DNA from: Octopus vulgaris
Taxonomy: Eukaryota
Assembly: GCA_951406725.2 (NCBI GenBank)
Contig: OX597818.1
Span: 21,080,001-21,144,000, forward strand
DNA: 64,000 nucleotides
Direction of reading: 5' to 3'
The notes beneath the pieces were generated by a model. That model was not told where the DNA came from and made no database searches. It saw nothing but the letters and a program-made list of their open reading frames with translations. Both the position numbers and the translations under genes were made by a program. Shown here piece by piece: positions 1,883-57,069 of the stretch; position 1 is the first letter of the stretch; the number at the start of each line of letters is the position of its first letter.

Positions 1883-1931
<49 letters not shown>

Positions 1932-4900
1932 CTATATGTGGCCCCAGTAGACCCGAATGAAATCGGGTTCTCTTCATCAAAATGTGAAAAGGGGTCTAGA
2001 ATTATCATCGCCACAACTTATGTTTTTCCTAATGATAATTATCATCGCCACCACCAACACACAATCATGACAATCTTTCTCTTAAAACAAATCATGTTTA
2101 CATTGCAAAATATTTCATTTTCCCGTCCTCTCTTTCATATATGTGACCCAGGTTTGGGTGGCCGCACAACTACAATTAGACAACGGCTAAAAACATTCGA
2201 TGTTGATAATGCCTGGATCGTTCCATTCAACCCTTTGCTTTCCAAAACATTTAATGCACACATTAATGTTGAGTACTGCAGTTCGGTGAGATGCATACAA
2301 TACCTCTGCAAGTACATTAATAAGGGCGATGATATGGCCGTGTTTGTGTTCAGTGATGAATACCTTAGACATGACGAAATTAAACAATTTGTTTTCGGTA
2401 GGTATGTATCCTCCAATTATGCAGCGTGGCGCATTTTTGGATACGAGATTCATCTCAGCTCACCATCAGTTTTCCACCTGAATGGTCATTTACAGAAGAG
2501 ACAGCTGCTTTACTTCACAGAGAAAAATGCACGTCAAGTCATTGAAAATCCAAAAGGGACTACGCTTACAGCATTTTTTAAATTGTGTTCAGTTGATGAG
2601 TTTGCTGCTACTCTCATTTACCCTGAAGTACCGGAATATTACACATACAACAATAATAATTGGAAGCGCAGGTCACATGGAACAGAACTTAACAATTGGC
2701 CAGGTCTTTCTAGGAAGAACGTCATTGGGTGTGTGTATAATATTCATCCTACCAAACAGGATATCTCTTTGAGAATGCTACTTCATGTAGTTACTGGACC
2801 GAAGTCTTTTGCTGATCTTCGCACGGATGATGGTATCATCTGCGCCACTTACAGGGAAGCATGTTTGAGGTGCGGACTTCTTCTCAATGACGACCACTTA
2901 CACAGGACATTAGCAGAGGCCTCAAATTGTAAACTGCCATGGCAAATGCGTCGATTGTTTTGTAGCATATTAATCCACTGTAATCCCAGCAACCCTTTTA
3001 ACCTTCGGGAATCGTTCAGACAGAGCCTATCAAAGGACATACAGGCTAATTTAGCGCTACGTGATGGCAACGACGATGTTTATAATGAGGCATTAATCGA
3101 CATGGACAGACACATCAGACGCTATGTTATACGCGGTTTAAGTGAATTCCATCTGCCAACACCTGTCCATCATGAAGCGCCTTTGGATGTTGAATACATG
3201 TCAGAAACAAACTACAACATTGCCGAATTGACGGAAACAAGTACGCGAGATGAACCAAGACTTTTGCCTGAACAAAGAGAGATTTATAATGAAATTATTG
3301 ACAGCGTTAGATTGAACCAAGGAAAGCTGTTCTTTTTGAATGCTCCAGGTGGTACTGGTAAAACTTTCGTTATCAATTTGATTCTCGCAAAGCTGCGCGC
3401 TGAACGTCGAATTGCCATTGCATGTGCTTCAAGTGGTATTGCAGCGACACTGCTTCAAGGCGGCCGCACGGCATATAGTGCATTCAAATTGCCCATGGAC
3501 ATTGGAAAGAAAGATAATCCTATATGTAATATAGATCGTAGTTCCTCAAGAGCAAGACTTCTTCGTGAATGCAGTCTTTTTATTTGGGATGAGGCTACAA
3601 TGAGTAATAAGGCCATGTTTGAGGCTCTTGACAGAACTCTCCAAGATTTGCGTCACAATACAAAAATAATGGGTGGAGCTACGTTTCTCATGGCAGGAGA
3701 TTTTCGACAAACTCTTCCTGTTGTCCGAGCAGGCACTAGAGCCGATGAGGTTAATGCATGTATAAAGCATTCTTATGTGTGGCACAGTGTTATCAGTCGC
3801 CATCTTCAAACAAACATGAGAGTCCACCTACATGGTGATGTGGAGTCTGAGGCTTTCGCAAAACACCTATTAGATCTTGGTGATGGAGTTTTGCCTTTCG
3901 TTGATGATGAGCATATTCGGTTGCCTTTTGGGAATTTCGTTCCAAATGTAGAAGAACTTATAAGAGCCGTTTTACCTGACGTCGAAACCAACTTCCAGGA
4001 TCTCGATTGGCTAAGAGCAAGAGCTATTCTATCGCCTCATAATACAACCGCTGAGGCTACAAATAAACAAGTACTTGATATGAATCCTGGTGAGATAGTT
4101 TCTTTCATGTCCATCGATACAAATAAAGATGAGAATGATGCAGTCAAATATCCACCCGAGCTACTCAACAAGCTAACACCTCCGGGACTTCCACCTCATC
4201 ATTTGTGTTTGAAAGTTGGTGCTCCAATCATAGTGCTCAGAAATATGGAAACGCCTGAAATATGCAATGAAACCCGAATGGTTATTAGGAGGATTCAAAG
4301 CCATGTTATAACTGCTGAAATTTTGAGTGGACCATTTGTAGGAACAATCTAAATGATACATAAAATGAGTATTTCACCCTCTGATGTTCCCATTCAGTTT
4401 AAACGCTTTCAATTTCCGATAAAACTATGCTTCGCGATGACAATCAACAGGTCACAGGGACAATCACTGGACATTGTAGGCATTAACCTATCACAACCGG
4501 TTTTCAGTCATGGTCAATTGTACGTAGCCTGTTCTCGAGTTGGAAATCCACATAAACTCTTCATTCTTGGCAATCATGAGCGCACAAGGAACGTGGTTTA
4601 TCAGGAGGCTCTGACAAAAGAAAACTGATTGTAAGTCATGAAATTTTGCTTGATTTTTTATTTTGCACCTCTTCATTATCTCTTCATTCTTGAAAATAAA
4701 GACATTAAAAAGTACATGGTTCATAAAGAACGTTGGGTTCAGATGTTTGCAAACATTTGATCCAACTCATTCTCTTTATTCCTCATTTTCCGATTCCTTC
4801 TACGTCTACATTAAACGGTTTTGTCAAGTTATTGTTTCTTCGCTAACATAAGACATTCATAAAGTGAATGAGTTGTTAATTACATTTTATACACGATTCC

Positions 4901-14711: not shown

Positions 14712-15134
14712 GGATCTTTTCGGTTTGAACGGCAGTTTTTTTCTGGCGGTGTCATATGAAATTGTCACCCATAATTATGACCCTAGTATCGATCTATTGC
14801 ATTTCAATCTGTTTTAGGGTTAGGGTTAGGGTTGGGGTTAGGGGTGGGGGGAAGAGTATCTTTTTTTCTTCAGAAATGTAAATAAACCCAATCTGTTTTT
14901 TAAACGAGGGGCATATTCATACGGCACAGAATGTTTTCACCTCAACAGACGTCACTGATTGGTTGAAATTGCAGAAAAAAACAACAACAAATATCTTACA
15001 AACTATAGAATTTTCTCAATAAAGCCAAGAGAAAAGGATGTTTTATAAACACATTGTACCAGTATACGAAGTTTAAAAGTGTTTAGTTACGTGGAAATTA
15101 TTTTTTAAAACTGCTGTTCAAACCGAAAAGATCC
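14712..15134. mobile_element. MITE (Merlin-like) carrying internal TTAGGG repeats
   Basis: 28-bp TIR GGATCTTTTCGGTTTGAACGGCAGTTTT with one mismatch; TSD ATGGATGA/ATGAATGA; TTAGGG run at ~14814-14843. Confidence 0.85.
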
Positions 15135-15326
15135 ATGAATGATGTCATTTAGATAAACAAAATTGAGTGAAACGACTGACAATTTCATATAAAGTAATAA
15201 AGTAGCTAATGAATTAAATTTCATGAGTAACAATGTTGCAAAGATCCAAGCACGAAATCTACTCAGTGAATATGAATTTGTTTAATGAAATTTTGGTCTG
15301 ACACTGTCGTTAGTTCTTCATTCTAT

Positions 15327-15395
15327 CATAATTTACTTTCACTTATTTAGTATAATTTACTTTCACTTTTTTAGTATAATTTACTTTCACTTTTT
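15327..15395. repeat. Minisatellite, ~24-bp unit x3
   Basis: ATAATTTACTTTCACTT[A/T]TTTAGT repeated three times. Confidence 0.85.
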
Positions 15396-15993
15396 ACGAC
15401 AGTAAACTGCATGTTAACCAATATCTATTTTTGTGTGTCTTAATATTTGTGTTGTGTTTGTCCTGCCACCACCATTCGACAACCGGTGTTGGTTAATTTA
15501 CGTCCAAATAACTTAGCGGCAAAATGAAAAAGACTGACAGCAAAAAGTACCAAACTTTAAGAGAAAAATATTTAAAGTACTAAGATCGATTTGTTTGATT
15601 AAAATCATTCAAGACTGCAGTCCAATGATTGAAACAAGTATAAGATAAAAGACATGTACACTGGAATCTGAACTTCTATAATCATTAATTCATTAAAATG
15701 GTGGTTCCTTTTCACATTGGTTGTTTGTTAAAATGAAATACTGATTGTTGTGATTTCAAATGATAATGAAAATAGAAGCTTTTAGAATCACTTTATTCAT
15801 TTCAAATCAAATACATGATCAATTCATGCTACATTTCACTAATTTTATTTCCCAAAATCGACCTAAGAAATGTTATGCAATTAACCGAAATTAACGTCAT
15901 CTGCATATGCAGTTAAACGAACTGCATTATTTATGTACAATTGACAGGGTATGTTTGCATGTATGTATAATGAGTGTATGTGTGTGTGTATAC

Positions 15994-16185
<192 letters not shown>

Positions 16186-16589
16186 CTTTCTATTTTGGTT
16201 TTAAAGCTCGGGTTTACCCAATTAAGCTCAACCAATACTACTGGCTATTAGACAAGACAGTAATCTGGAGAGTGTCATTTCAAAGGCACTGGAAAAGTAA
16301 TCAATCGTTGGTATACTGGTTTGTTTACATCTCCGTAATTCAGCGGTTCGGCAAAAGTCGATCAAAGAAATAAGTACCAGACTTAAATTATAAGAACTCG
16401 GTCGAGTTATTCGACTAAACCTTTCAAGGCAGTGCCATTGCATGTCCACAGTCCAGTGACTGAAACAAATTCACGATAAAGAAAATGTACATACATACAT
16501 ACATACATACATACATACATACATACATACATACATACATACATACATACATACATACATACATACATACATAACGCGTGTGTGTGTAT

Positions 16590-17035
16590 TTACATATCAA
16601 GGATTGAACAGACAGAACACAACAAGGAGAAAAAGTTAGACGAAAGTAGAGCAAATGGGAAACTAGGTGAAAACTTAACGGACGGGGAATATAGACAAAG
16701 ACACAATACACGGAGTATTCGCAGCAAAATATCATCGTGGTTTCGCACCATTATCATTGAGACCACTCAATCTTAATGGTGCTAGTGCTGTTATTAAGTT
16801 ACTGGGAAAAAGCTAGCGAGTGTATACTGAGGCAGAAACCAACAAGACAGTATATAAACAATGGTGCGAAACTACGATGATACTTTGGTTCATTGACTGA
16901 CGAGGAAAACTCAGCTGCAAATATTCCGTGTATGAGTTTTCCATGTAAGTTTTCATCTAGTTTCACGTTTGCTCTACTTCCGTCTAACTTTTTCTCTTTG
17001 TTTTGTTCTGTCCGCTCAATCCTTGATACATCCAT
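16590..17035. mobile_element. Inverted pair of PLE-like pLTR fragments
   Basis: 16590-16752 is a diverged reverse complement of 16860-17030; hammerhead-like GAAAC and CTGACGA words in the right arm. Confidence 0.6.
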
Positions 17036-17078
17036 GTAGTGTAGCGCAACGCACACCCTGTTTGTTTTACTTTATATA

Positions 17079-17181
<103 letters not shown>

Positions 17182-17248
17182 CATACATACATACATACAT
17201 AGATACATACATACATATAGATATATATATATATATATAGATAGATAA

Positions 17249-17371
<123 letters not shown>

Positions 17372-17559
17372 TACCACGTGGTCACGTTACTGATCAGGCT
17401 ATCAGATGTTGATGCACATCGCTGGTTACAACGCGCTTTTGCATTGTTTAGCCTTCAAATGGCGCCAACTTTTGGTGAAAGAGAGAGTTCGACACTACTG
17501 TCCTCTTTTTAATTTCCTGTTTGATATAGGTTCATTTGAGACTTTGGATAGCTGGAGGT

Positions 17560-18560
17560 CAAGTTGTTTCTTGAAAACATCTACTCCTACCCTATGAAGA
17601 TCCCTTAGATGTTTTGGAAAGGCATCAAATAGCTATGGGTTCTTGAACCCCAAATTATTGCAGTACATGGTCCTCAGTCTAGACGGGATAGCTGGGTGAA
17701 CAGCGCAGTGACGTCCAGTTGGAGGGCTGGTATAGCTTTCGATACTAAAGTTTGGTGCCACGCCCTCTAGGATCTTCCATACGTACTTCACTGCATACCT
17801 TCCTCGTCTTGGAGTTGCTGAGCTACTGAGAGAGACTGAGCGAGTCGTAGCTCGCTCAGTCTCTCTCAGTAGCTCAGCTGTTCCATTGATGCAATCTTTC
17901 TGGTGTAGCACCGCTGAACTACATCAAGTTCTGTTATTAACTTGACACTCTAAGGTGACCACAGTTGAGAGCAATATTCCAGACAGCTAAGTACAAATAT
18001 CCTCCATAGAACCAGCATAGTTTCCTGGTCCCTTGTTCTGAATGTTCTCAGAATCCATCCGGCTATTCGCCAGCACAATGCCATCATCTTGGTGGTATAT
18101 ACATGAAACGAGGTATCGCTGCTCATATCAATCCCCAGATCACGCACCGTACGTTACTCTGGGACTGCCGCCCCTTTTGGCCCAAAGTATTGTTGTTGCG
18201 GCTTGTGAGTACCAAATAGTTGGTAGCGGAGGGCTCAGAATTTACCTGCATTAAATTGCGTGTTATTTTCTTCTACCCATTTACATATGGTAACTGATAG
18301 CATGTCTGAAAGAGACGCCATGAACAGTAGCGGCTCCAAATGCAGTTCCCCGAGGCACTCCACTCTCTATTACTGGATTCTGTCTTTTAAGAAGTCATGC
18401 AACCACTCTCCCAGTTATCCGACTATGCCGAGCATCCGTAGCTTGTGACATGTGATGCCGTGATCAACCTTATTAAAGAGCATTGCAAAATTGAGATATA
18501 TCACATACAGTTTGAGCGATTCATTAATTGTTTCAACACTCAATCATAGCGCTGCAACCA
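17560..18560 (-). mobile_element. CR1/L2-group LINE RT fragment, decayed
   Basis: IYLNFA..NKVDHG (equivalent to DFAKAFDKVDH), GVPRG, RDLGI, LEYCSQLWSP, YVWKIL. Confidence 0.8.
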
Positions 18561-18569
18561 TCTTGTGCG

Positions 18570-18850
18570 GGACCTGTCACTTGGCCACTTGGCCTCTTCC
18601 AGCCCGCAACTGTTGCGTCGAATGTGAGTAAAGCCCTGGTAGGATGATCTAGCGGGAGATGGAGGACATATCCGTACCAGTGCACGCGACGGATAGCGAC
18701 GAAGTGAGATGCTGCGAGCTGATGCGTGCGCGCACGCAGTTCTTTGTAGGAAACGTGATTATTTCATTGTAGATTGTAAATAGTCCTTCATATGTTTCAG
18801 CTTTGTAAATCTTTTCTCGTATGTAGCCATAGACTTACAGATCGTCAGAA
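18570..18850 (-). mobile_element. RTE-like LINE 3' fragment
   Basis: RRVHWYGYVLHLPLDHPTRALL..GWKRPSG. Confidence 0.6.
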
Positions 18851-18887
18851 ACAATGTGGAAGAGTGGAAGAGTGAGGAGAAATTTAG

Positions 18888-19060
18888 TGGAGGCGCAAGG
18901 CTTGATAGTTATGAGTGCTGGAATCATGGTTGTAAAACTTGTCGTTTCGACTCCTGAACAGAGTTATACGTTGTGTTCATGAACAAAACACTTCAGCTAA
19001 TGTTGCTCCAGTTCACTCAGCTGGCAAAAAAATGAGTAATCTTGTGACGGACCGGCGCTA
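18888..19060 (+). mobile_element. tRNA-derived SINE family B, diverged
   Basis: GGAGGCGC.. head and GTTGCTCCAGTTCACTCAGCTGGCAAAAA core shared with 40889-41120. Confidence 0.7.
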
Positions 19061-19974
19061 GGATTGGCTGGCGACGCAGTATTGAACCTACAAGCTGAGG
19101 CAACTTACGATTGTCGTTTATTGTTAGTTCACCATAATTTACCAGATGATGGCGGATTTTTGTTTTGATGTAATCTAAGTGTGGCATCAATAAAATGCTG
19201 CCAAAGAGTTATTGTGAATTTTAAACCCCACTTGTGTTCTGCATTATGTGGGTGTGTGTATGTATGTATGTATGTATGTATGTATGTATGTATGTATGTA
19301 TGTATGTATGTATGTATGTGCATATGTATGTGTGTGTACATGTATATATTATATTATGTATATGTATATCTAAACATATGCATACACACACACTTGTAAT
19401 GATACACGCTCTCATACATAATCAAGTAACAATAGTTTTGAGTGTATCAACATTGACGAACAAAAGGGAGATTGTCGCCATTATTTAAAACAAATGATTT
19501 ATCCATCACTCACCCAAAACGTAATTATGATACATTTCCAAATGAGCATATTTTAACTAAAAAAAGACATAAAACAAAATAAAATTTGAATTATTATAAA
19601 ATGGCGCCCGACAAAATTTGGCGCCTGCGACATATCTCGACCAGCTCCACTCTAGTTATGTCACTGGATTTACCTATTTGAGCAAAATATCCCTTTTTGG
19701 GATAACAATTCCAAATAGACTTGGGCACTGGACACTACTTTCTATGGTGGTAAACTTCGCACAAAAGAATGAGAAAGTACAAGCGTTTTTTATTTTTAAC
19801 CTTTTGTACGAAGTTGTTATTGAATTTGTATTGTCTTTGAATAATAAAACAGCATTCAATATTATTCTGTACTAGATTCACAGGAATACAGTTTTTATAT
19901 TAGTACATACATACATAATGCATACATACATACATACATACATACATACATACATACATACATACATACATACA

Positions 19975-20730
19975 ATGCGGAACTTACAGTCCTTGTACCC
20001 ATATTGTGAATTCTCATTTGTATCTCTCATCGGTTTCACTGAAAAAGAGCAAAAGAAACTGACGAAGATTCTGAATATCAAATTTATTTGGGGCACAGTG
20101 AATATTTGTAAGACATTCCAAAAATTCTTCAACTGAGATTTTTATGTGAATAAATACACACACTGGTGTATACATCGGCAATTCAACTCAACACACAAAC
20201 TCAACCACATATTTACAGACACCAGGAACTCTCTTGACTCAAAAAGTTTTGTCGCTTTGTTAGCGACAAGCGTGGACTCTCTCAAGAACTTAAATAAAAC
20301 TCAAATAAAAATCATACATTGAAAAATCTGCAATTACTCTATCCACACTACAAGTTCAAGTTTATACCTGTAATTATTGGAGTCCTGGGATATGTAACAC
20401 ACTGTCTAAATACCGATCTTGAGAAATTAGGCTTCTCAAAACCAGAAAGGAGAAAGTTGAGTCGAAGACTACAGATCCAATCTATCACTGGAACTGTAAA
20501 AATCTGTAAAACTTCCCCAAAGTTTATAATTTAAGTATATATGAGCATGTCTAGATATGCAAGTATATGCGTGAGAAGACATACATAAAAAAATTAAAAT
20601 CTGCACGTATATATACATACGTACAGAAATATCGTTGTTGATGTTGAAATTCCAATGAAGAAGCCTTAAATCTAGGTTAGAAACCGGCTTTTTCTCTATT
20701 GGCAAGAAATCTTGAAATAAAACTGATTAA
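19975..20730 (+). mobile_element. Two tandem 5'-truncated R4/Dong-like LINE 3' ends
   Basis: RNLQSLYP..GTVNICKTF and NLQLLYP..IIGVLG..TGTVKICKT, matching the C-terminus of the 35836-37462 copy; each preceded by CATA repeats. Confidence 0.8.
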
Positions 20731-21049
20731 TGACATATATATATAGTTTCTATTGAAACATTGCACAAAAATGTGTTGTCTGAGAAATACATTAAAGGTA
20801 CTAGGGTCTGTAAAATTGGCAGCCACTGAAACATATATAATGCAGCGATAGTCAATAAAATAAATATAAATTTTTTAAAGTTATCCTTCTGTGCGACATG
20901 GTATCAAATTATACACGTTTCAGTACTGGTCTGCAGCCCGAGAATTGACGGCCGTTGACATACAGGATTGCAAAATGATCGTAGAATTTGTAAGGCTCTT
21001 TCTTTTACTAGCTTAAAAAGATAAAAGACAAATGTTTGATTTAAGTCTT

Positions 21050-22215
21050 CAATTGTGGAAATCTTACAAAATTCGGCTGTCCTCCAACCGCTTCAACTAT
21101 CATTCGCAAATTCCATGACGGAATGCTAGCCAGTCTCTCTCGGTGGAACATCTTCAGAATAATTCAGTGTTAAATCGGGAGTCAAACAGGGCTTCGTTCT
21201 CGCTCCTGTTTTGCTCAACATCTACCTAGTAGCTATAACTCTCCCCTCCCGGGTCCATGTATCTCCCAACGATGGCATAAGCATTCATTGCCGCCTTTGA
21301 TGGCAGTATTTTCAACACCCGCCGGCTCAAATCGAAAGACCTATGCAAACATATTTTAATAAAAAGCATCCAGCAACATAATTATATATAAACGACACAC
21401 CTCTGTCAAACGTTGACACTTTTAATTACCTAGGCAGTGGCATATCACAAAATGAACATGTCAATGATGACATCCTACGACGGACCAACTACACCTCGTC
21501 CTCCTTTGGACGCTTCCGAGAACGAGTGTTTGTAAACAGAAATCTGAGGCTTGCCACTAAGATTGCTATCTATCGCGCCTTTGCCTTCTCAAAATTATTG
21601 TATGGCTGCGAATGGTGGACCTTATACTGCCATCATGTGACGAAGCTAGAGTCGTTTCACATCCATTGTCTCCAACGAATTTTACGCATTACTTGGAAAG
21701 ATAAGGTCCTCCACACAGAAATTCTCTAGCAAGCAGGAATCTCCAGCGCTGAAGCCATCATCAAACGCCGTCTTCTAAGATGGGTCAGCCACGTTATCAG
21801 GATGCCTGATAATCATCTCCGGAAAATGGTCTTCTTCGGAGAGGTATCGACCGGTCTTCGCCCGCACGGGAGACCCAAGAAGAGATTCAAGGACCATCTT
21901 AAGCTTGTCCTCAACTCCTGCAACATTCAGCCGGCACAACATTTTGCTCGGAACTGACAAACCTGGCAATCCCTCTACGACAAAGGAACCGCACACTTTG
22001 AACTAATCCGACGTGAGAAACTTGAGGAAAAGAGACGTCAACGCCATCTCAGACTCACCAACAACATAATGAGTAACTTTCCTTGTCATCTGTATTCAAG
22101 GACATGCCATTCCAGGATCGGACTGTTTTCACATGTCAACTCACAAGATGTAGGATAAGACTCCTAGAGGACAACGTCGTCGTCAACATTGACGGACAGC
22201 TATAAGCAAGTAAGC
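21050..22215 (+). mobile_element. RTE (BovB-like) LINE, decayed and internally deleted
   Basis: FHDGM, GVKQGFVLAP, FNYLGS, LLYGCE, LRWVSHVIRMPD, GRPKKRFKD, C-terminal CHxxSRTCHSRIGLFSH; TAAGCAAG tail. Confidence 0.85.
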
Positions 22216-22431
22216 AGAGCTGAAATATATTTATAAGTAGTTAAGTCTATATCCGATCATAGAGTGACCAATTGTTTCGCATCTAAACGTCTCTCGGCTT
22301 TAGAGTCTGATGAGACATTCATCAAATTCACTTACAAGGCATTGGTTAGGCGAGATGACGCGCAGTGATACTGAACCTGAAGCCACGTAGTTGCAAAGTG
22401 AGTTTCTTAACTATACGGCATGTGTGTGTGT

Positions 22432-22478
<47 letters not shown>

Positions 22479-23138
22479 TGTGTGTGTGTGTGCGCGCGCG
22501 CGCGCGATCTATATTTGCCTCTTCCCTGTGGATCTGCGGTGTTGAAGAACTCATCAAGCCTGCGTATTTGCATATCTCGCAGTGGGGAAGTAAAGAATAC
22601 TTTGGAATTGTTTATTTAATATTTCGCTTATCCTCAAGGGTCTGCAGTCTGTGAGCCGTTTTCTTCAAACAGTGACCTTATCTTATAACACACCGAAGAA
22701 AATTCTTAGATTTCCTTTCTCATTTTCAACTATCTTGACTTATTTTCTTCCCTTTTTTTTCTGCATGGGAGAGGCTTATTTTCTTCTCTTTCTTCTCCAT
22801 GGGAGAGTATATTTTCGGTGTCTTTTGAGGTGAGACTTCTTGTTGTCATTAAGTTGTTTATTTACGCGATTTGAAACCTTTATTCTTCATCTCATAAAGA
22901 CTCTCCTGTCCCCAAGCAAAATGTTTTTGTGCGTGATACTCTTCTGTCTGGGACACATTTATGGTAAAAGCTTGCATCATTGACATACATTCTTTGAGTT
23001 TCATTTCACTGTCATGCGGAGAAATGCTTTGGGGCCTTTTTTTTTTTCTATTTGAACCATCTTCCAGTTCAGGCTGTGCAGGGTTTGAGTGCTTCTTGTG
23101 TGGTATAAATAATTTTGGTCTATATATCGTTAGTTCTA

Positions 23139-24404
23139 TCAGGTCATCCCATAAGTTCTGTCCGAATTTTGAATAAAGAAAACAAGTAATCAAATGTTAT
23201 ATTTAATTGAAATTTAATCCTCAGTGTACTTTCCTTGATTATCTATGACTTCCTTCCATCTATTTACAAGCTTTTTAATCCCATCAATGTAAAACTCTTT
23301 TGGTTTCAAAGCGAAGAACTCTGAAATGTCAGTTTCGACCTCCTCCTGGCTTGCGAAAGTTATGTCCCCCAAATGATTCTGTAAACTACGAAACAAATGG
23401 TAGTCTGAAGGAGCAAGATCGGGAGAATAAGGTGGATGAGGAATTTTTTCCCAACCAAGCTCTTCGATCTTCTGTGATGTGATCTTTGCAGTGTGGAGTC
23501 GCACATTGTCCTGATGAAACATCACTCCTTTTCGATTCACTAAAGTGGGTCTTTTTTCTTCAAAGCTTGCTGGCTGACAGTAGACTTGAGCATTGATTGT
23601 TGCATTAGGTGGTAACAATTCAAAGTGAATTACTCCTTTGCAATCCCATCAGATAGAGAGAAGAACCTTTTTCCCATGAAGTTCCCTTCTTGGTTGTGGT
23701 TGAGCTTTTTTCCCTTTTACCAAGCCACGACGTTTAACATTTCGATAGAAGATTCATTTTTCGTCACCAGTCACAAGTCTATCCAAAAAGGGTGAAATGA
23801 GTTCGCGAGAATGGAGAGAAGAGCAGATGTCAACTCGGGTTTTCGGTTGCTTTCGGACAATTCACGAGGAAGCCATTTTCCAAGTTTAGGAACCTTTCCA
23901 AGTTGTTGAAGATGACGATGAACAGTTGTATGGTTTGAACTAAGCTTTATTGCCAATTCTTCAACTGATAATGCAAGATTTTCTTTAAGTAATGCCTCAA
24001 GGAGCTTATCATGAAACTCAACTGGTCGTCCTGTTCGATTTTCATCTTCAAGGTTGAAATCTCCACTTCTGAATTTTGCAAACCATCTTCTGCAAGTTCT
24101 TTTATTCAAGCATTCTTTCCCATAAACTGAGCGTATGTTTCGAGTCGCTTCGGCTGCAGTGCTTCCTTTTTTGTACTCATAAAGCAGTATGTCCCTCAAA
24201 TGCTCTTTGGATACTTCCATGTCATAGAGGGTTTTAATCAAAGAAATTTTAATTCTATTATTCTGTAAAATAATATTTAATTAGTTTAAATGTACACAAA
24301 TGCATAAAAATAGTATTTAATTCCATTAGACATTCTAAAATACTATTAAATTTCATTCAATTTTAAAAAAGGTAAAATCGGACAGAACTTATGAGGTGAT
24401 TTGA
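23139..24404 (-). mobile_element. Full-length mariner (DD34D) element, decayed
   Basis: TIRs TCAGGTCATCCCATAAGTTCTGTCCGA / TCGGACAGAACTTATGAGGTGATTTGA; TA TSD; 1266 bp. Confidence 0.93.
23214..24220 (-). pseudogene. mariner transposase with frameshifts and a stop
   Basis: HTH RRWFAKF, WLPRELS, VTGDEK*, FHQDN, PYSPDLAPSDYHLF. Confidence 0.92.
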
Positions 24405-30835: not shown

Positions 30836-33247
30836 CACCTTCTTAATATTAATCTTTCTTACTACACCCAGTCTATTCCTTCAGTGTATCAAAGTTACTC
30901 TTTGGCAAAGGCGATATTCCGAAATGTTAGCCATTTCCTCTTCGACACACCAAATTAATTTATTCCACTTTTCATCTCTTTATACTCATTGACTTCCGGT
31001 GGAGACCAATACTGGTTTCTTCGAATCTGTTTACTTTGTTTATATAAAACTTTTAAAATATCTTACGTTTTTATTTATGCTAATTTAATTTTCTTAAAAC
31101 TAATTTTGTTAATTTTACTCAGAATGTGGATTTGGCATATTTCTCTAATTCTATAATCATGAGATGAATTTGAATACTGGTTAAGTTCTACAGGTTATTG
31201 TTGCCTTACTGTTATCTCTTGCATACTATTTTAGTCCATTCCATGTTTTGATGGTCTACAAAGCGATTGTTCGTACACCAGCACGCTTCAACTACTAATT
31301 TACGCGCTATTTCCTCTATACCTACTACTAGTACAACAACTGCTTCCCCTCCTCTGACCTAGCAATGTGCATACTATTTAGATTCGTCGAACAACACCTT
31401 TTCTTCCTATTGTTACTTCAACTACGTTACCCCAACGCCTTATCGCTCAAATTTTGTACTAAGCACTTCCCAATACATCCAAAGGTTTGGAGCGAAAATA
31501 TATGGCGAAGTGCTTAGTACAAGATCTGAGCGTGGGATGGACTAACATTGTAGCAGTGACGAGAGGAAGAGAGAATTCAAATTTCTTCGGTGCCCACATG
31601 TTTTGTTCTTTTCTTTTTTTTTTTGCAGGTGTCAGCAAGCGAGCAACGCAAAAATGGATAAAAAACGTTCGCGAGACAAATAGCGTTTAAGATCCAGTTC
31701 ACTTCTTTTCGCAACCATCGGAATGCGAAGTACTTGTCATGAACGTACGTTCGTAAGATGGTTGTCATCTGTAAAGTTTTGAGTAGGAACCGGAAAGATA
31801 AGTATGAACACGCAATGTACATGTTCACACTGAATTCATAAAACAGAAGAGAAAAATGAAAACGCAATGCGCTTGTCAAAATAAAACGAAAGAGCAGTTA
31901 TATGGTGGTCAGCATGCCACTTCTGACATCACAACCACGTAGCTTTGCTGCAATTTTCTTGTTATGGAACAGTACATTAATGAAGTTCATAGTACTTCCT
32001 CCATTCGGTAGAAATAAGTTACAAATCGATAAATTTCGATGCGCGTCGGCAAGAAGTCAACGGTTCAGATTTTTCAAACAAATTCATTTTGAAAATGAAC
32101 CAAGGATTACTCGCTCAAACACAATAGGCATCCCATTGTAGGAAACGTATTTGTATAGGCTTACTTTGTGTGTTCTAATATAGGTAAAGTATATTAAACG
32201 GAACTGAGCAGTGTTGAAAATGAAAATAAAATATACTCATGGCAAAACCTTCTCTCCGGATGCTCAAAAGAATACTTAAGCACAAAGAATCTTATTTAAA
32301 TTTATTATTTTGAGCTCAGTGTGTGCCTTGTATATGAAGCTGTTGTCGTTCAACATTTTCGTGATGCATTGTATCCTTTAGGCTAAACAACTACAATAAT
32401 CAAGAGGCCAGTTACTGAGAGCCATAAAATTGCAGGTAAAAGGTTGAACATTATTATTGGAATCATAGAGCCTTTTGGTATCAAATTGATTAGCAGAAGA
32501 GGCAATTTTTTAAATAAGAATTACTTTCAATGCGTGTCAGTCTTTTCTGACAAAATATTCGCTGTTTTCTTCATGTAACGCTTCCAGTGGAGGGGGTGGG
32601 GGTTGTGAGAGAAATTTCTGCCCTTTAAATAGTTACGAACAGTTGAGGATTTTAATGGCAGGTTTAACGCAGGCGAATGTCTTAAAATCTCCTTCCAGAT
32701 GTTGTTTGCAGGCTAGACGGGAAGAATTTCATTCACTGCGTAAGTGAATGGCCGTTGAGTTTTCAGAAAGCGCTGAACTTCTCTAATTGGTTTATCTCTT
32801 TTTACTTTCTTTCATTTCAATTTTTTTTTTATTTAATTTAAATGAAAATTGAATTTATAAAATTTTATAAAATCTATGTAAAATCGTCTTTTTCTGTATT
32901 TTTCTTCATCTTCTTTTAAAAAGCAATTCTCTTTCGATGCCCCTGTGGCAACTGAATATATCATCATCGTCGTCGTCGTCGTCGTCGTCATCATCGTCAT
33001 CATCGTCATCATCATCATCATCATCACTGCCATTAGTATGGTTATCATTATGATGTTTTGATTTTGTATGCTAACATCATTTTTCGTTCTTCCTTTTTCT
33101 CGGTGTAAGACAGCTACATACATACATACATACATACATACATACATACATACATACATACATACATACATTCATACATACATACATACATACATACATA
33201 CATACATACATACATACATACATACATACATACATACATACATACAG

Positions 33248-33885
33248 CAAATGTGTGCTTTGCAAGATGAAAACTGAAGACATCAACCACATTATTGCCA
33301 ACTGCGAGAGAATGTCTTCCAGATATTATCTTCCCATGATGCATGATGCAGTGGTCAGAACAGCCTGGAACAGGATTACAAAAAAGAAAAGACCTACCCA
33401 TGAAGTTGACTATATTGTGACCGACGGGTCAAAAGAATATTGGTGAAACTTAAAAATTAAAACGGCCAGATATTGTTGAATGGGACCACAAGGAAAAGGT
33501 ATGTTCTGTTGTGGAAATCAGTTGCCCTATGGACGCCTATGTGGTTAGAAAAATACAAGAGAAAGTGAACGTCTATGGACCAATGATAAAGAGTTTTCAG
33601 ATCCAGTACCCAAAGTTATATACCCATTAGTATGGGAGCAACAGGTTACATACCAATCCGTCTGGAATAAAGTATGAACTTGACACCTTGGGGAGAGAAG
33701 GCAAATCCTTAATTCATTCACTATAAATGATTACGATGTGTGGGACTATAAAAACCTGAAAAACCTTCTTCAGATTTGAAAGATAATGATTAAAACAAGA
33801 TACTTCCCTTCACAATCTTGCAACCAAGTAAGTGGCCGGTCGAAACTTCTAAACTGAAAAGAGAAAGAAAACATGCAATGCAATA
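33248..33885 (+). mobile_element. R4/Dong-like LINE 3' fragment (divergent subfamily)
   Basis: LCKMKTEDINHIIANC..MHDAVV (CCHC finger), EYW, VVEISCP; (CATA)n on both sides. Confidence 0.75.
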
Positions 33886-33927
33886 CATACATACATACAT
33901 ACATACATACATACATACATACATACA

Positions 33928-33958
<31 letters not shown>

Positions 33959-34086
33959 GTACTTACATAATGTAATCCCGAGGCCAAAGAGATAAGAACC
34001 CTCAGTATGGTAGCGACTATAGAAATTCATAATATGAAAGAGTACTGGAAGAATGTCCCAGTTGAAACCTAAATAAAGTATAAATG

Positions 34087-34838
34087 CAGGGTGATGCACA
34101 AAAATGTAGCCCGGGTTCTGGAGCATAGTGTAAATATAGAAATAAATTTACAAATACTGGAATGGGTGTAGCTCAACATTAGCAATGCTATTCAGAAGCT
34201 ATGTGCAGTAATTTACTCGTTTGCTCCTGTCATCCACTTTTAATTGCTGTTCACATGAGAGATGATATAGTTTTAACTTCATACTTTTCTACAGTTTTCT
34301 GTTTATGTGAGACTGCTGCGCCAACTTACGTGTTGACTTCTTTAGACTTCGACTGATCTTTTGGCAAATGTCCTGAACAACTTCCAGCATTCGAACTGTA
34401 GGGTGTCTTCGTTTCGGGGAGTTATGCACTGGCCCTGTAACGTGCCACTTTTTAACCAACATTTCTATCGTTCTCTTTGCCAGTAAGCCTTTACTCGGAA
34501 ATTTGTTTTCAAAACTTTGTGTTTGCTTAACAGAACCCGTTCTCACATACGCTTCTACAATCTTTATTCTTTCCTCTATGGAGTATGTCACCTTACAGAA
34601 AAGGATAGAGATGTTCGCTCAATGCAATCTTACAATCAGCTAATGTGTTGAGGATGCGGTGAGGATAATGTTGCAAGCAGTAGATTAATGCGCCATCTTT
34701 GTTCAGCAGTTGCAAGTGATTGAAATAACATAATGACACTTGCAAACGAAAGGTTGGGTGCTTTTTCGTGTGTGTAAATTTATTTCTGTATTTGCACCAC
34801 GCTACGGAACCCGAGCTACTTTTTCGTAAGCCACCCTG
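34087..34838 (-). mobile_element. Tc1/mariner-superfamily deletion derivative retaining an N-terminal HTH (DUF4817-like)
   Basis: Long TIRs CAGGGTG..GTAAATATAGAAATAAATTTACA; ORF 34289-34591 MTYSIEERIKIVEAY..KSTRKLA; catalytic DDD domain absent. Confidence 0.8.
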
Positions 34839-34996
34839 TATAATAGACCAGGCATCGTGATTTGGGACAAAATGATAAACTAGGTACGCTAGTGGAAATC
34901 AGCCGTGGGCGGTGTCAACATAAAGCTAAAGATCAGGGAAAAAGAAAGACACATACGCTGAACCGTTGAGAAATTTACAGTTACTCTACTCGGATC

Positions 34997-35170
34997 CATG
35001 TCCGTCGCTAAGGAGGGGGGGACACTGGACAACACTTTATCCTCATTATTCAAGTGTGCACCCTTAGATTTAGAAAACAGTGTTTACAAAACTCTTCCTG
35101 CAATACAAATTAGTGCCCACTCAGAATATTCTGAAACACCCCCAAGTACCAAAGTATGGTGACGGGCCTG
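34997..35170. mobile_element. Small hAT-like MITE
   Basis: Ends CATGTCCGTC / GACGGGCCTG; degenerate duplication TCGGATC/CCGGGTT of the host LINE sequence. Confidence 0.55.
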
Positions 35171-35744
35171 CCGGGTTACAAGTTAGGTTTATACCTGTAA
35201 CTATTGGGTCAGTAGCATATGTAACAAACTGTCTAAGCATCAATCTTGAAGAATTAGGCTTCTTGAAAGCAGAAAACAGAAAATCAATTAGAAATTTTCA
35301 GATTCAAGCCATCAATGTAACTAAAAATTTGTAAAACTTTTGAGAAGTTAGTATTTAAGTATATATATGTGCATGTCTAGACATGGAATTATATGCATGA
35401 AAATACATACATAAAACAAAAAAAAATACAAATCTGCGCATGCACTGACTCCAAATACTGCAAACATGCAAATATTCACAAATATCCTGTTGATGTTGTA
35501 GAAATTCCAATGATGGCGCTTTAAGATCTACGTTAAAAACCGGTTCTTCTTGTAATAGCAAAAAATCTTGAAATAAAAATGAATGTTAACAAATATCCAT
35601 CTATCCATCCGTCCGTCCGTCCATCCATCCATCCATCCATCCATTCATCCATCCATCCATCCATACATACATACATACATACATACATACATACATACAA
35701 ACATACACACATACATACATACATACATACATACATACATACAT

Positions 35745-35775
<31 letters not shown>

Positions 35776-35835
35776 TACATACATACATACATACATACAT
35801 ACATACATACATACATACATACATACATACATACA

Positions 35836-37225
35836 TGAAAGCATATATTACAATGGCGCTTGTAACAAAACACGTGTCACTAAAGAATATTACAGCCGAA
35901 TAAAGAAAATTTGGACCTCAGAACTCACTGCATTCAATAAAACAGTGGCCCAAATTGTGTTTGCAGTGCCAGTATTCATACCAACATTTGGGCTGCTTGA
36001 TTGGACGCTTGATGAGATCCGAGCCACTGATGTGAAAACCCGAAAATACTAACAAGCACATATAATTTCCACATTAACAGTGACATAGACCGCCTCTACC
36101 TAAAACGAAAATAAGACGGAAGAGGCTTAACATCGATCCAAAATGCATTTGAATGTTGTATCATATCTCTTCGGCAACATCTTTTAAAACCCACCAAGTG
36201 TCGCATACATGAGGCTGATAACATCGTAAGACTTGGAAGGCAGCTACTTGAACAATATTCTTAATCTGATAATCTAGAATACATGCTCAAAGAAGTCGCA
36301 CGACTCTACCTCAACGTATCACCAGATGAAAGGATGAGCCTATATGAGCAGAAGACTATGCATAGATATGTTACTAGAAAGCTCCGCAATGATAGTAACA
36401 TTGATTATCATAGCAGTCTATCAAGGACCAATAGCTGGGTTACTACCTCCCACCTTAAAGGGTATGCGTTTGCAATCCAAGAACAGGAAATATCAGCCAG
36501 ATGCCTGATTCACAGAAGGGATAGAGATACAGGAAAAACAGTAACATGTGACAACCGATACAGACTTTGTGGATTTAATACTGAAGATATCACCCACATC
36601 ATAAGCAGTTGTCCGAAAATGTCATCACGGTTATTATCTACCGATGAGACATGATCTTGTAACTAGGGCACTCTATAATGAAATACGTCGGAAGGATAAC
36701 CCCGAGGACAAAGAAATAAGAACTCACAGTATAGTAGAAGCCATAACCACTCATAATAATAAGGAGTACTGGTGGAATGTCCCAATGAAGACCTCAATAA
36801 CATGTAAGCACAACAGACCACATAATGATTTGGGATGGAGAAGAGAAACTCTGTACAGCTGTGGAAATTAGCTGGCCAGCGGATGTTAATATAAAGCTAA
36901 AGATCAGTGAAAAAGAGAATACTTACGCTGAACTATTGAGAAATCTGCAGTTACTCTATCCAGATTACAAGTTCAGGTTTGTACCTGTAATTATTGGAGT
37001 CCTGGGATATGTAACACACTGCCTAAATACCAATCATGAGAAATTAGGCTTCTCAAAATCAGAAATGAGAAAGCTAATTCGAAGACTACATATCCAGTCC
37101 ATCACTGGAACTGTAAAAATCTGTAAAACTTTTCCTGAAGCTTATCATTTAAATATTCATATAGTAACATGTCTAGATATGCAATTATATGCATGAGAAT
37201 TCATACATAAAACATACAAATCTGT

Positions 37226-37284
<59 letters not shown>

Positions 37285-37462
37285 TACATACATACATACA
37301 TACATACATACATACATACATACATACATACATACATACATACATTTCATACATACAAAAATACCCTGTTGTTGATGTTGAAATTCTTATGAAGGAGCCT
37401 TGGATCTAAGTTAGAAACCGGTTCTTTATTGGCAAGAAATCTTGAAATAAACTGAATAATGA
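35836..37462 (+). mobile_element. R4/Dong-clade LINE (restriction-like endonuclease), 5'-truncated, longest copy
   Basis: EYYSRIKKIWTSEL, FAVPV..FG..DWT, RLYLKR..GRGL, AIQEQ, RLCG..EDITHIISSC..RHD, HNRP..IWD..VEISWP..EKENTY. Confidence 0.88.
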
Positions 37463-37621
37463 CGTACATACATACATACATGCATGTATACATACATACA
37501 TACATACATACATACATACACACACACACATACATACATACATACATACATACATACATACATACATACATACATACATACATACATACATACATACATA
37601 CATACATACATACATACATAC

Positions 37622-37720
37622 ATTGGTGTTGAAATTCCAGTGAAGGAGCATTGGATCTAGATTAGAAACCGGCTCTTTCTTTATTAGCCAGAAATCTTGA
37701 AATAAAACCGAACAATAACA
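37622..37720 (+). mobile_element. ~100-bp R4/Dong 3'-tail-only copy
   Basis: Matches 37372-37462; embedded in (CATA)n. Confidence 0.75.
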
Positions 37721-37753
37721 TACATACATACATAGATACATACATACATACAT

Positions 37754-37793
<40 letters not shown>

Positions 37794-38569
37794 ACATACA
37801 TACATACATACATACATACATACATACATACATACATACATACATGCATACATGCATACGTACATACATACATACATACATACATACATACATACATACA
37901 TACATACATACATACATACATACATACATACATACATACATACATACATAAGTACATACATACACGAAGGCAGTCAGGAAAATATAAGCATACGTGTTCA
38001 TGTGCACGTATTCAGACAAACAGGCTGGCAAATAGATAGATAGATAAGCAGATGGATAGATAGACAGAGAGAGAGGGAGAGACAGAGAGAGAGAGAGATA
38101 GCCCTCCTATTTGCTGAATGCCCATATACGATAAGTGAAGGTAACGTGCGTACCCTTCTGGTTCATTTTCTCCCCGCCCTATTACTCCATTATCTATTTT
38201 TATATCTATCACATACTTCCTTTGAGCTCTACACGCAAACCCCATAACACTCTCCCGTAAAACTTTTTAAAAGCAATAAAAAAATAAAACTCTTAGGGCT
38301 TACAAGAAGAAAGACTGCATTAAATAAGAATGAAATGAAAGCGAAGCCGTCTTTCACGTAAGTGAGTCTCAAGCTCATAAACAATGTGTGTCCCTCCCTC
38401 ACAATTTTGTATCGTTAAAAAGTTCTCCCTAATAATGGTTACCGTTGTAGTGGTAGTCGGTTTTTTTTTTGATAGCGGAAAATACGAAACAAAAACAGTG
38501 ATTAAATAATACAACTGAATCAGTATGCCTATGTTTATTGTATGTGTGTATGTGTGTGTGTAGCATATA

Positions 38570-38730
38570 TGTATGAAATTTTTGTATGTCTATGACTATT
38601 TAATTTTATTTCTAGATTTCTTGTTGATGGAGAAAGAGCTGACTTCTGACCAAGATCGAAAGCTCCCTCATTGCAATTACATCATGTTTGTGTACATGTA
38701 TGCATACATGTGCAGATTTGTATGGTTTGC
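38570..38730 (-). mobile_element. Diverged R4/Dong 3' tail
   Basis: Minus strand GCAATGAGGGAGC..CAAGAAATCTAGAAATAAAA followed by CATAGACATAC. Confidence 0.6.
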
Positions 38731-54227: not shown

Positions 54228-57069
54228 TTTTTGACAAAACGTCTCAAATTCAAGGGTTCTTTAAAGTCGGTTATGTTGACTCCAGTACTTGATTGCGTTT
54301 TATTTAACTGATCCCAGAAGGGATAAAGAGCAAATGAACATAAGGCACTTTCATAGGGACCATGAAATATCTATCTATCTATCAAAGTACTAACTTTGTC
54401 GCTTCTTCTCACACACGTGCTCGCTCTTTCACATGTTATCTCTAAATAGTTGATTTCATTGACCCACACACACCATATTCTCTCTGCCAGCACCATATCG
54501 TTCTATCAAACCAGTGGTTTTTGTGTGTGTGTGTGTTCATTAGAAAAATAATTAAGAAGGTTGGATAAAATTCCTTGGCTAAAAACTTGAAGTTGGGACG
54601 CTTGGTTATTTTTTGTTTTTGTTTTTTTTTCCTTCATCGTGGCTTCCAATTTCATGTTGATAATGAATATTATCAATCAGGATAATGTCAAGAGATTTAG
54701 ACAGATAGTGAACTTTTCTTTGTTCTGACCATAAAAAGTTTTGTCTTATTTATTTATTTACATCTTACATAACGTGTTTTTGCAAAATGCCATTAAAAAT
54801 ATGTACTATTAAGTTAGAAGGAAACAAATTCTGGGCAGTACCAACTAATTACACACACATAATGTGTGTGTTACCCAAAATATTTTCACTTTCTGGCAAA
54901 TAAAAAATTATTATTATCCAAGAAATCATTTACGTTAATTGTTCATTATTTAACCTATTAAATATTTACCATTGTTTTCATAAATATTTTGCTTCACAAC
55001 ACACACATTTCCCCCTTCTGATATTGTTATCATCACTGCTACTGTTGTTGTTGCTGCAACTGCAGCTGATATTCGATACTACTACTACTACTACAGTCGT
55101 AGTAGTTGTTACTGTTGTAGTAGTAGTAGTAGCAGCAGCATACTGGGTTATGTTATGATATCGTTGTCTCTAGCTTTCTGTACAACTGTTATTTTCATTG
55201 TCAACACGAACAGTATTGTTATCATTATCATCATCTTAATAAAGTCCAAGACTAGTTAGGATTGGTACCTGAAATAACAGCTACACAGGTGGTAGTCGTT
55301 ATCGTCGTTGCGGACCTATGATCAAAGGCATTATTTCCCACCATGACCCCTTTTTTGTTTATCTAAGACTACATAAACCCAGTATATAACCATTCTTCTT
55401 GTATTTTGAGGGAAACGTAGCTGCTATTTCTACTAGATCGAGTAACCTGGTAATAGATTAGTGTAAGCGTTTTGGTTGGTTTTCATGCAGTATAAGTATA
55501 TAGGGATGTTGGTGGTGAATTTTACGTATACCTATATAATCGCGTTTGATTGACAGTCTACAAAAACATCAACTGCCATCACAAACACCAATTTCCACCG
55601 CCAGCACCTCAAGCAGACAAGAACACCTTCACCTTGAGCTAACGTTGGAGCCTTGTATGTGGTTTGTTCGATCTGTTCAAAATAGTTATCAAATTTCCCA
55701 CATACGTTGATGATGATGTCTGGGTTTCGTTGTAAAAAGGAAGGTCACATTATGGTTATGGCTTGAATACATTTGATTATAGGCCTGTTCATTCAAGATT
55801 CCTAAAAATAGTAACCAAATCTCTGTTAAACTGCATCAGTCTTAAATAATGATTGACACATTGGATAATGTGGCGTTAGATACACTAGGTCGGATAAAAG
55901 GATAGAATTTTCATGACGGTGATGGCTTTGATCTTAAGTCAAATTAATCAGAGTTGATTGGAGGCTGAACGAAAACAACAAACCAAACCTCCGATTCTGA
56001 GCTAATGAACGACCCTCTATGTGATCGTTCAAACTGCGAGAAATAGCATCCAAATCTCCCTCAAATCGCTCTCTGCTGCCTTTAAAAGATGCATTTAAAA
56101 AAGGATGTACTTAGATGTCACTAAAAACACAAAAGGGTCCAAAGGCTGAACTGAGGTTTAACAACTAACAAAATCCTTTGCTTTACATTCCATCTACAAC
56201 ACCATTACTGAAATAATCCAACCTGCCAATGGGAACCTCAACATAGTCACTCAACCTGCTAGAAATAGCAGCTAGATTTTCCTTAAATTCCAGTCTATTG
56301 TTTTAAGTGATATATCTTAAATTATATTCCTGAGAGAGAGCAGACTAAACCATACAGCCATGTTTGTTAACTAATATGTAAATATATCATCATCATCACC
56401 ACTATCATTTAATGTCCTTCCTGTTGCCAACCCCCACCTGTTTCCAAGCAACGTAATAAGTTCCACAGCCAGGCATGGCATGTGCTTTTTTTTTTTACGA
56501 ACAACATCACTTGTATGATAGTAATAATGCATGTTTGCAACCATAATGTCAAGACAAAGGTACACACAAATATGCATACACACACACACACAACAGGTTT
56601 CTTTCAGTTTCCATCTACCAAACCCATTCACATAGCTGTGATTGACCCAAGGCTTATAGTAAAAGACACTTCACCAAGGTACTGCACGGCAGAACTGAGG
56701 GACTGAACCCAAGACCACAGGTTGGGAAGCAAGCTTCTTAACCACACAGGCCTGCCTGTGCCTATACATATATTTGTATGTTTGTGTGTGTGTGTGTGTG
56801 TGTTATCTATATTCTAATGATGAAGTTTTGTATCTTTGTTAGAAACCAGCCCCTTCCTTACAGGAAGATCTCAAATAATTCAAAATAGAACATGCCCCCC
56901 CCCACATATGTATGTGTGTATGTATGTATGTATATGTCTACACACACACACAGCCCTTTATCTTGTCATCTGCATTGCTTTAACATATCTGTTTATTCCT
57001 ATCTTTGTCATTCTTTCCCCTTGCCTTCTTTGTTTTCTTATTCTGTTATTCCTTTCATCTGATCCCTAC

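What the first reader, a model, noticed from the sequence alone, without database searches (positions are those of the whole stretch)
33115..37950. R4/Dong-like retrotransposons stacked strand-specifically in (CATA)n
Seen: copies at 33248, 33968, 35836 and 37622 (also 19975, 20318 and 38570 on the minus strand) have different 5' truncation points and at least three different 3' UTRs. The plus-strand copies start right after CATA repeats or a degenerate version, and the sense strand is always the CATA strand. Known: Dong-type R4 elements use a restriction-like endonuclease to target microsatellites, for example (TAA)n. Inference: a (CATA)n-specific lineage whose own tails and internal CATA tract regenerate the target, building self-feeding arrays and contributing to the microsatellite load.
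Basis: partly seen in the sequence, partly recalled or inferred. Interest (0 to 1): 0.7.

Follow-up and report, generated by a model that had tools for sequence, protein, structure and literature searches.

The report
CATA-microsatellite-targeting Dong retrotransposon lineage
These are broken copies of old jumping genes that sit inside runs of the four-letter repeat CATA, nearly always facing the same way, and likely got there by cutting that repeat on purpose; related elements were known to aim at TAA repeats, so this looks like a new target for a known kind of element.

Summary
The stack holds decayed copies of R4/Dong-type non-LTR retrotransposons. In 89 copies of the main family, CATA repeat lies within 25 nt of the 5' junction on the sense strand in 57 and on the antisense strand in 1; background is about 1.3%. 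Full-length 5' ends give 25 of 30 versus 0. Truncation points show excess microhomology to CATA (26 of 55; 7.6% expected), so the repeats are not just tails. These families form a clade apart from this genome's young, intact (TAA)n Dong families. The clade includes an intact metagenomic element bounded by (CATA)n and others bounded by (CTTA)n. 'Self-feeding' is a minority route: 3 of 86 truncated and 7 of 30 full-length copies follow an earlier copy. A net contribution to microsatellite load is unproven. Eight literature searches found no CATA-targeting R4/Dong; ACAY targeting is known for unrelated Waldo elements; Repbase was not searchable. The scan earlier noted an AAT-targeted train in another genome, but no CATA case.

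The parts
33115..33246 (+). (CATA)n tract at the 5' junction of the family B copy
33247..33872 (+). Family B copy, 5'-truncated at the CCHC zinc knuckle; degraded endonuclease region; short family-B 3' UTR with the 26-nt hairpin at 33815-33840
33883..33969 (+). (CATA)n tract between the B copy and copy A1, degenerate at its 3' end
33973..35591 (+). Family A copy A1 in three pieces (33973-34083, 34842-34988, 35176-35591), with degenerate internal tract and terminal UTR; 81% identical to other family A copies versus 90% typical, so older or a diverged subfamily
34087..34838 (.). Later insertion with imperfect terminal inverted repeats and TA-like flanks (Tc1/mariner-like; label recalled) interrupting A1
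34989..35175 (.). Second later insertion interrupting A1 (short imperfect inverted ends; not classified)
35595..35835 (+). (CATC)n/(CATA)n/(CA)n tract between A1 and A2
35836..37463 (+). Family A copy A2: 3' part of the ORF (RT thumb region, CCHC, restriction-like endonuclease; stops and frameshifts), UTR part 1, internal repeat tract 37216-37357, terminal UTR 37358-37463 with hairpin 37397-37422
37465..37621 (+). (CATA)n tract after A2
37622..37716 (+). Solo terminal UTR of family A (about 95 nt; 82-88% identical to A2's, so not a recent duplicate)
37717..37964 (+). (CATA)n tract closing the array
38596..38725 (-). Degraded family A 3' UTR piece on the minus strand, in a degenerate CATA-like tract on its own sense strand (ends approximate)
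19904..19974 (+). (CATA)n tract before the family F copy
19976..20310 (+). Short copy of a fourth family (F): ORF end and its own 3' UTR with a related hairpin at 20245-20272
20318..20735 (+). Family A 3' fragment starting 7 repeat-phase bases after the end of the F copy

Best explanation
These are dead, mostly 5'-truncated copies of several R4/Dong-type retrotransposon families that sit in (CATA)n tracts in one orientation, likely because their protein cuts pre-existing (CATA)n and primes reverse transcription there. Shown: RT, CCHC and C-terminal endonuclease architecture; CATA at both junctions on the sense strand; a 3' end fixed in one repeat phase; excess microhomology with CATA at 5' truncations; a clade distinct from the TAA Dong families. 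Inferred, by analogy with R2 target-primed reverse transcription: (1) the protein binds a conserved hairpin about 44 nt before the RNA 3' end; (2) the Myb-like N-terminal domain and endonuclease nick the TATG strand; (3) the RNA's CAUA-phase 3' end anneals to that strand, fixing orientation; (4) the cDNA is joined upstream through 2-7 nt of CATA microhomology. This array likely grew mainly in the 3' direction (B oldest, then A1, A2, solo UTR) before activity ended, roughly 15-30 million years ago by a borrowed rate.
For: 5' junctions 57 of 89 sense versus 1 antisense, background 1.35%/1.29%, signal falling with distance. Full-length 5' ends 25 of 30 versus 0 (two of these loci are also in the 89). 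Families B 9 of 20 versus 1 and C 5 of 9 versus 0 with rougher junction calls. 3' ends 79 of 98 CATA versus 4, commonest phase identical. Microhomology of 2 nt or more in 26 of 55, expected 7.6%, p 3e-15. Internal control: young Dong families D/E have TAA at 19 of 19 3' ends and CATA at 0. Tree: the CATA/CTTA clade has SH-aLRT 100 and is apart from the TAA group; forcing this genome's families together is rejected, p-AU 6e-31. Intact relative L220 is bounded by (CATA)n at both ends. Best fold matches of its model are R2 proteins. Hairpin: 84% of cells paired, 7 of 9 pairs with two-sided changes.
Against: No empty (pre-insertion) site was seen, and target-site duplications cannot be resolved inside a repeat. 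27 of 89 junctions lack a CATA 8-mer within 40 nt; several are interrupted, inverted or degenerate, but not all were explained. Only 1 of 4 testable nested cases shows the displaced end of a split host copy. Full-length copies follow another copy more often than truncated ones (7 of 30 versus 3 of 86, p 0.003), which random use of tracts does not explain. No intact family A, B or C ORF was seen among scored matches, so cleavage specificity is untested. Copies were best-scoring hits, not a random draw. The hairpin alignment is 10 hand-picked rows with the structure read from them; 3 of 6 metagenomic clade members had no match to the motif pattern.
Confidence: 0.8

Rival explanations
1. The 5' CATA is made during insertion: the reverse transcriptase jumps from the end of one RNA onto the CAUA-rich end or internal tract of another element RNA, copies some repeat (sometimes a piece of the next copy) and stops, so stacks are partly single-event dimers and the genomic target need not be a long tract.
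For: Full-length copies are more often preceded by another copy's 3' part (7 of 30 versus 3 of 86). In 3 of 4 testable cases no displaced host end follows. Tandem terminal UTRs with short spacers are common (5 of 29 directly downstream). Template jumping by the R2 enzyme is recalled, not read here.
Against: Upstream neighbours include other and older families (B, C). Adjacent terminal UTRs are no more alike than random pairs (85.6%, n=15, versus 88.8%). Microhomology to CATA at truncation points fits joining to a target. L112 shows a host copy split around a full-length copy. Most 5' tracts have no element upstream.
Confidence: 0.1
2. The endonuclease is only loosely specific. Orientation and site choice come from annealing of the RNA's CAUA end to any nicked TATG-containing strand, and short duplicated seeds later grew into long tracts by slippage.
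For: Some copies have only 7-12 repeat-phase bases at the 5' junction (window 20318, L011, L021, L047). Upstream tract lengths range from 0 to about 600 nt.
Against: 3' ends are in one fixed phase. Sister clades show clean, different targets (TAA, CTTA, 28S rDNA) that follow the protein tree. Other repeats, including the more abundant (TA)n, are not enriched at junctions.
Confidence: 0.08
3. Passive accumulation: elements insert anywhere and survive preferentially in repeat-rich DNA, with CATA only a 3' tail.
For: The genome is microsatellite-rich; passive accumulation has been proposed for Drosophila Waldo-A/B (PMC3812793).
Against: 57 versus 1 strand bias, base-level adjacency (mostly 0-3 nt from the junction) and no enrichment of CA, TA, GATA or TAA.
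Confidence: 0.02

Closest known systems
Dong (R4 clade): Bombyx Dong, DongAg, DongBg, ostracod Dong (PMC3812793, PMC7998251; passages read), and the young TAA families D/E of this genome
   Same: Single ORF with N-terminal helical domain alignable to Dong-like proteins, RT, CCHC and restriction-like endonuclease; no N-terminal zinc finger; microsatellite target on both flanks in one orientation.
   Different: Target is (CATA)n, or (CTTA)n in relatives, not (TAA)n; only about 30-37% RT identity and a separate, well-supported clade; own conserved 3' hairpin; family A has an internal target-like tract; families here are dead.
Waldo (WaldoAg1, WaldoAg2, WaldoFs1; R1 clade), ACAY-microsatellite specific (PMC3812793 passage citing Kojima and Fujiwara 2003; original not read)
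   Same: Target class ACAY includes (ACAT)n.
   Different: Waldo is described as an apurinic-endonuclease element of insects; these have a C-terminal restriction-like endonuclease and fold like R2, so the shared target is likely convergent.
R2 retrotransposons (PDB 9nl3, 9dou, 9nl2, 8gh6)
   Same: Best sequence and fold matches among solved structures; model for target-primed reverse transcription.
   Different: R2 targets 28S rDNA and has N-terminal zinc fingers (PMC7998251); identity 15-19%.
Octopus 'Dong-R4' LINEs as annotated (PMC13282606 parts 1-2 of 3; PMC8967140, PMC9115989, PMC10294476 passages)
   Same: Dong-R4 is a known abundant LINE group in octopods, with recent and old families.
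   Different: None of the passages read describes insertion targets or separates CATA from TAA lineages; supplements and repeat libraries were not seen.

Membership tests
R4/Dong clade | Single ORF with non-LTR reverse transcriptase | tested here: met
   PF00078, E 7.6e-15 on a family A segment; near-full-length copy L159 aligns to an intact relative over residues 12-834 and 1080-1157; intact L220 ORF of 1133 aa.
R4/Dong clade | C-terminal CCHC knuckle and restriction-like endonuclease, no N-terminal apurinic endonuclease | tested here: met
   CCHC and PD..E..K-type motifs in P0002, window A2 (frameshifted) and intact relatives (motif naming recalled); fold hits R2 first, E 3e-34, ahead of LINE-1.
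R4/Dong clade | N-terminal SANT/Myb-like domain without zinc fingers (PMC7998251) | tested here: met
   No CCHH pattern in the first 450 residues of five proteins; N-termini of the CATA-clade and Dong-like profiles align from residue 19; three helices at residues 22-77 of the model. Myb identity rests on the paper, not on a direct Myb match.
R4/Dong clade | RT phylogeny grouping with reference R4, Dong and Rex6 against R2, NeSL and HERO | tested here: inconclusive
   Sister to a group holding TAA-flanked elements and lepidopteran proteins (SH-aLRT 93), rooted on two unclassified 28S-rDNA elements; no named reference elements were available; quick tree, 45 of 60 rows used.
R4/Dong clade | Site-specific insertion into rDNA or a microsatellite | tested here: met
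Dong proper (TAA-specific) | (TAA)n target | tested here: not met
   0 of 89 family A junctions have TAA repeat; TAA families D/E are a separate clade.
R4/Dong clade | HDV-like self-cleaving ribozyme at the 5' end (PMC3774820) | tested here: inconclusive
   No ribozyme family matched in Rfam at E up to 1 in 11 loci, including the TAA Dong controls; the 5' end is conserved and carries hairpins but was not classified.
R4/Dong clade | Target-site duplication | tested here: inconclusive
   Shared flank strings are repeat-like and cannot be told from the tract.
Waldo (R1 clade) | N-terminal apurinic endonuclease | tested here: not met
   N-terminus aligns with Dong-like proteins and the endonuclease is C-terminal.
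R4/Dong clade | Sequence-specific cleavage by the protein | not testable with these tools
   Needs a biochemical assay.

The most novel reading that the evidence does not exclude
An undescribed, widespread R4/Dong subclade has switched from TAA to tetranucleotide microsatellites, (CATA)n in octopods and one metagenomic element and (CTTA)n in others. It shares a covarying 26-nt 3' hairpin and has intact members, so a one-base target switch (ACAT versus ACTT) can be mapped to the protein or the RNA end. Its internal target-like tract spawns solo 100-nt ends and strand-uniform stacks.
Probability: 0.6. Interest if true: 0.55.

Novelty: new variant of a known kind. Interest (0 to 1): 0.45.

Why it matters
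How endonuclease-guided retrotransposons change their target is an open question and bears on R2-type gene-insertion tools. Here one genome holds a young TAA lineage and an old CATA lineage, and public metagenomes hold intact CATA- and CTTA-flanked relatives, giving a natural series for testing whether the Myb-like domain, the endonuclease or the RNA 3' end sets specificity. It also shows convergence with Waldo on the same repeat by a different endonuclease, and warns that some CATA microsatellites in octopod genomes have repetitive flanks. The phenomenon itself, microsatellite-targeting LINEs, is known.

Tried and rejected
All-against-all junction calling hopped onto shared short repeats in about a dozen loci and was replaced for family A by element-only references; B and C counts still use it. 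The idea that the terminal 105-nt UTR is a captured foreign piece was rejected: family C ends in a homologous hairpin at the same distance from its end. The idea that tandem terminal UTRs are recent duplications was rejected. Subtype linkage between UTR parts, meant to confirm split hosts, was uninformative. The split-host test succeeded in 1 of 4 cases; L046 could not be tested. The target-site duplication search was inconclusive. Rfam gave only repeat-driven microRNA-type matches below gathering score. The PDB sequence search with the endonuclease segment alone gave only chance hits. No RNA holder was listed for the stretch. Laying other species' contigs on the element body showed abundance but no listed CATA loose ends and no empty site. 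PMC309301 and PMC4400214 were not held. Literature searches without a CATA-targeting R4/Dong report.
Full report
Setting. The window lies in a 2.8-Gb, 227-contig animal genome that is rich in microsatellites. An octopod host is inferred from the repeat landscape and from the best-scoring relative with a species name, an Argonauta protein. The element family is also abundant in contigs of four other coded organisms, with 14,914-23,422 records laid per run.

What is in the array. From 33115 to 37964 the plus strand reads: CATA tract; a family B copy (33247-33872); tract; family A copy A1 (33973-35591, broken by two later insertions); tract; family A copy A2 (35836-37463, with an internal tract at 37216-37357); tract; a solo terminal UTR (37622-37716); tract. 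A smaller stack at 19904-20735 holds a fourth family (F) followed by family A, and a degraded UTR lies on the minus strand near 38.6 kb. All coding parts carry stops or frameshifts. A1 is 81% identical to other family A copies, against 90% for A2 and for typical pairs, and family B is about twice as diverged as A. The order of the stack therefore fits growth mainly in the 3' direction; this is inference.

What the elements are. A family A segment matches the RT family PF00078. The C-terminus has a CCHC knuckle and a PD..E..K-type endonuclease motif (motif name recalled). Thirty best matches to the 5' end share one start, giving a full length near 4.3 kb. Intact relatives of 1,130-1,160 aa exist in public data. 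The model built for one of them (L220; mean pLDDT 83) matches R2 proteins best. Their N-termini align with Dong-like proteins and lack zinc fingers, as PMC7998251 describes for R4/Dong. First-look candidates number 5,841 for the endonuclease DNA and 46,684 for the protein, the latter including other families. Three family A copies were found in 200 kb of evenly chosen genome, so copies number in the thousands to tens of thousands. No intact A, B or C frame appeared among scored matches. Pairwise distances are 0.10-0.12 for A, 0.11 for C and 0.22 for B (biased young by best-hit choice), or about 15 and 30 million years at the rate quoted in PMC13282606.

Junction test. For 89 of 89 family A loci fetched, 57 have a CATA-phase 8-mer within 25 nt of the 5' junction on the sense strand and 1 on the antisense strand, against 1.35% and 1.29% of random windows. 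The signal falls to 24 at 100 nt and 4 at 500 nt, and CA, TA, GATA and TAA are not comparably enriched. Twenty-seven have none within 40 nt; several of these junctions are interruptions or inversions rather than true ends. Full-length 5' ends give 25 of 30 versus 0. Families B and C give 9 of 20 and 5 of 9 with rougher junction calls. At 3' ends 79 of 98 have CATA, mostly in one phase. Among 55 CATA-positive truncations, 26 share 2 or more bases and 11 share 3 or more with the repeat, against 7.6% and 2.4% expected. The 5' repeats therefore behave as the joining substrate, not as tails.

A separate lineage. The same genome has young, mostly intact Dong families (98-99% identical in family D) flanked by (TAA)n, 19 of 19 at the 3' end and none with CATA there. 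In an RT tree (45 of 60 rows; 15 near-redundant or short rows dropped; quick search) families A, B and C fall in a clade with SH-aLRT 100, apart from the TAA group. Holding this genome's families together is rejected (p-AU 6e-31; the group was named after the tree was seen). The clade includes metagenomic contigs: L220 has (CATA)n at both ends, L222 has (CTTA)n at both ends, L221 and L225 at one end, L223 has a CTTA/CATA mix, and L224 shows no tract. Each is a single contig. No named reference elements were available, so placement within R4 is by architecture.

3' hairpin. About 44 nt before the end, families A and C carry a 26-nt motif (97 and 27 matches, with some overlap). B, F, L220, L222 and L225 carry the same geometry with different letters. 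On 10 hand-picked rows, 84% of cells pair and 7 of 9 pairs change on both sides; no shuffle of 500 reached the covariation score, and slid controls were far lower. The structure was read from these rows, and L221, L223 and L224 did not match the pattern. A role in RNA recognition is inferred. The hairpin marks the 105-nt piece as family A's true terminus and the CATA tract before it as internal.

How self-feeding is it? Direct same-strand neighbours upstream: 3 of 86 truncated copies (6 were called; L044, L050 and L119 were dropped as parts or inversions of the same copy) and 7 of 30 full-length copies, plus 1 on the opposite strand. Downstream of 29 terminal UTRs, 7 have another piece directly, and 9 of 29 UTRs are solo; L199 holds six in a row. 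Twenty-eight of 79 copies lack the terminal UTR within 450 nt. Adjacent UTRs are no more alike than random pairs. L112 looks like an older copy split at its internal tract, but three other candidates show no displaced end. Solo, missing and tandem UTRs could come from truncation or priming at the internal tract, or from recombination between tracts; these were not told apart. In random DNA 4 of 18 CATA tracts touch an element, all on the same strand, in 2 of 20 stretches. Stacking is real but secondary, and a causal share of the microsatellite load is not shown.

Prior knowledge. PMC3812793 (passages) lists TAA for Dong and ACAY for Waldo. PMC7998251 (passages and figure legends) says Dong targets TAA in most insects, molluscs and cnidarians. 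PMC3774820 (passages) reports 5' ribozymes in R4 and Dong; none matched in Rfam here, not even in the TAA controls. PMC13282606 (parts 1-2 of 3), PMC8967140, PMC9115989, PMC10294476 and PMC4640811 (passages) note Dong-R4 in cephalopods or target specificity in general, without a CATA target. Searches found no such report. Repbase, Dfam, subscription papers by Kojima and Fujiwara, and supplements were not seen and may already name these families.

Verdict. A real, well-supported new target variant of a known kind of element; interest 0.45.

Noticed in passing
window 1851-4352 +: 833-aa open frame with a PIF1 helicase domain (E 6.5e-65), likely part of a Helitron.
   Followed up: partly
window 34087-34838 and 34989-35175: Two inverted-repeat insertions inside copy A1; the larger looks Tc1/mariner-like.
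   Followed up: partly
window 56804-56890 +: Degraded 3' end of family C.
   Followed up: partly
window about 21060-21500: Stretch that looks by eye like a decayed RT-coding fragment of another LINE, perhaps RTE.
   Followed up: no
window 14814-14843: Five copies of the telomere-type hexamer inside the chromosome.
   Followed up: no
L140-L158: Two young Dong families in (TAA)n, most with intact ORFs; several family E copies carry tandem ~170-nt units upstream, and family D copies often follow the 3' ends of other TAA-tailed elements.
   Followed up: partly
L221, L222, L223, L225: Metagenomic relatives flanked by (CTTA)n, one with mixed CTTA/CATA, suggesting a target switch inside the clade.
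   Followed up: partly
L260, L266: Two distant relatives inserted in 28S rDNA a short way downstream of the R2 site (site recognised from memory).
   Followed up: no
L311, L303, L305: Family A copies with an intact 5' end and large internal deletions; L311 is only the 5' end plus the terminal UTR, a possible non-autonomous derivative.
   Followed up: no
L160-L189, first 110 nt of full-length family A: Conserved 5' end with hairpins and a possible loop-downstream pairing; no Rfam match.
   Followed up: partly
L199: Six terminal UTRs in a row separated by repeat tracts, 76-89% alike.
   Followed up: partly
L004, L016, L047, L101, L176: The 3' end of a common short repeat sits directly upstream of the CATA junction in several copies; order of insertion not worked out.
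   Followed up: no
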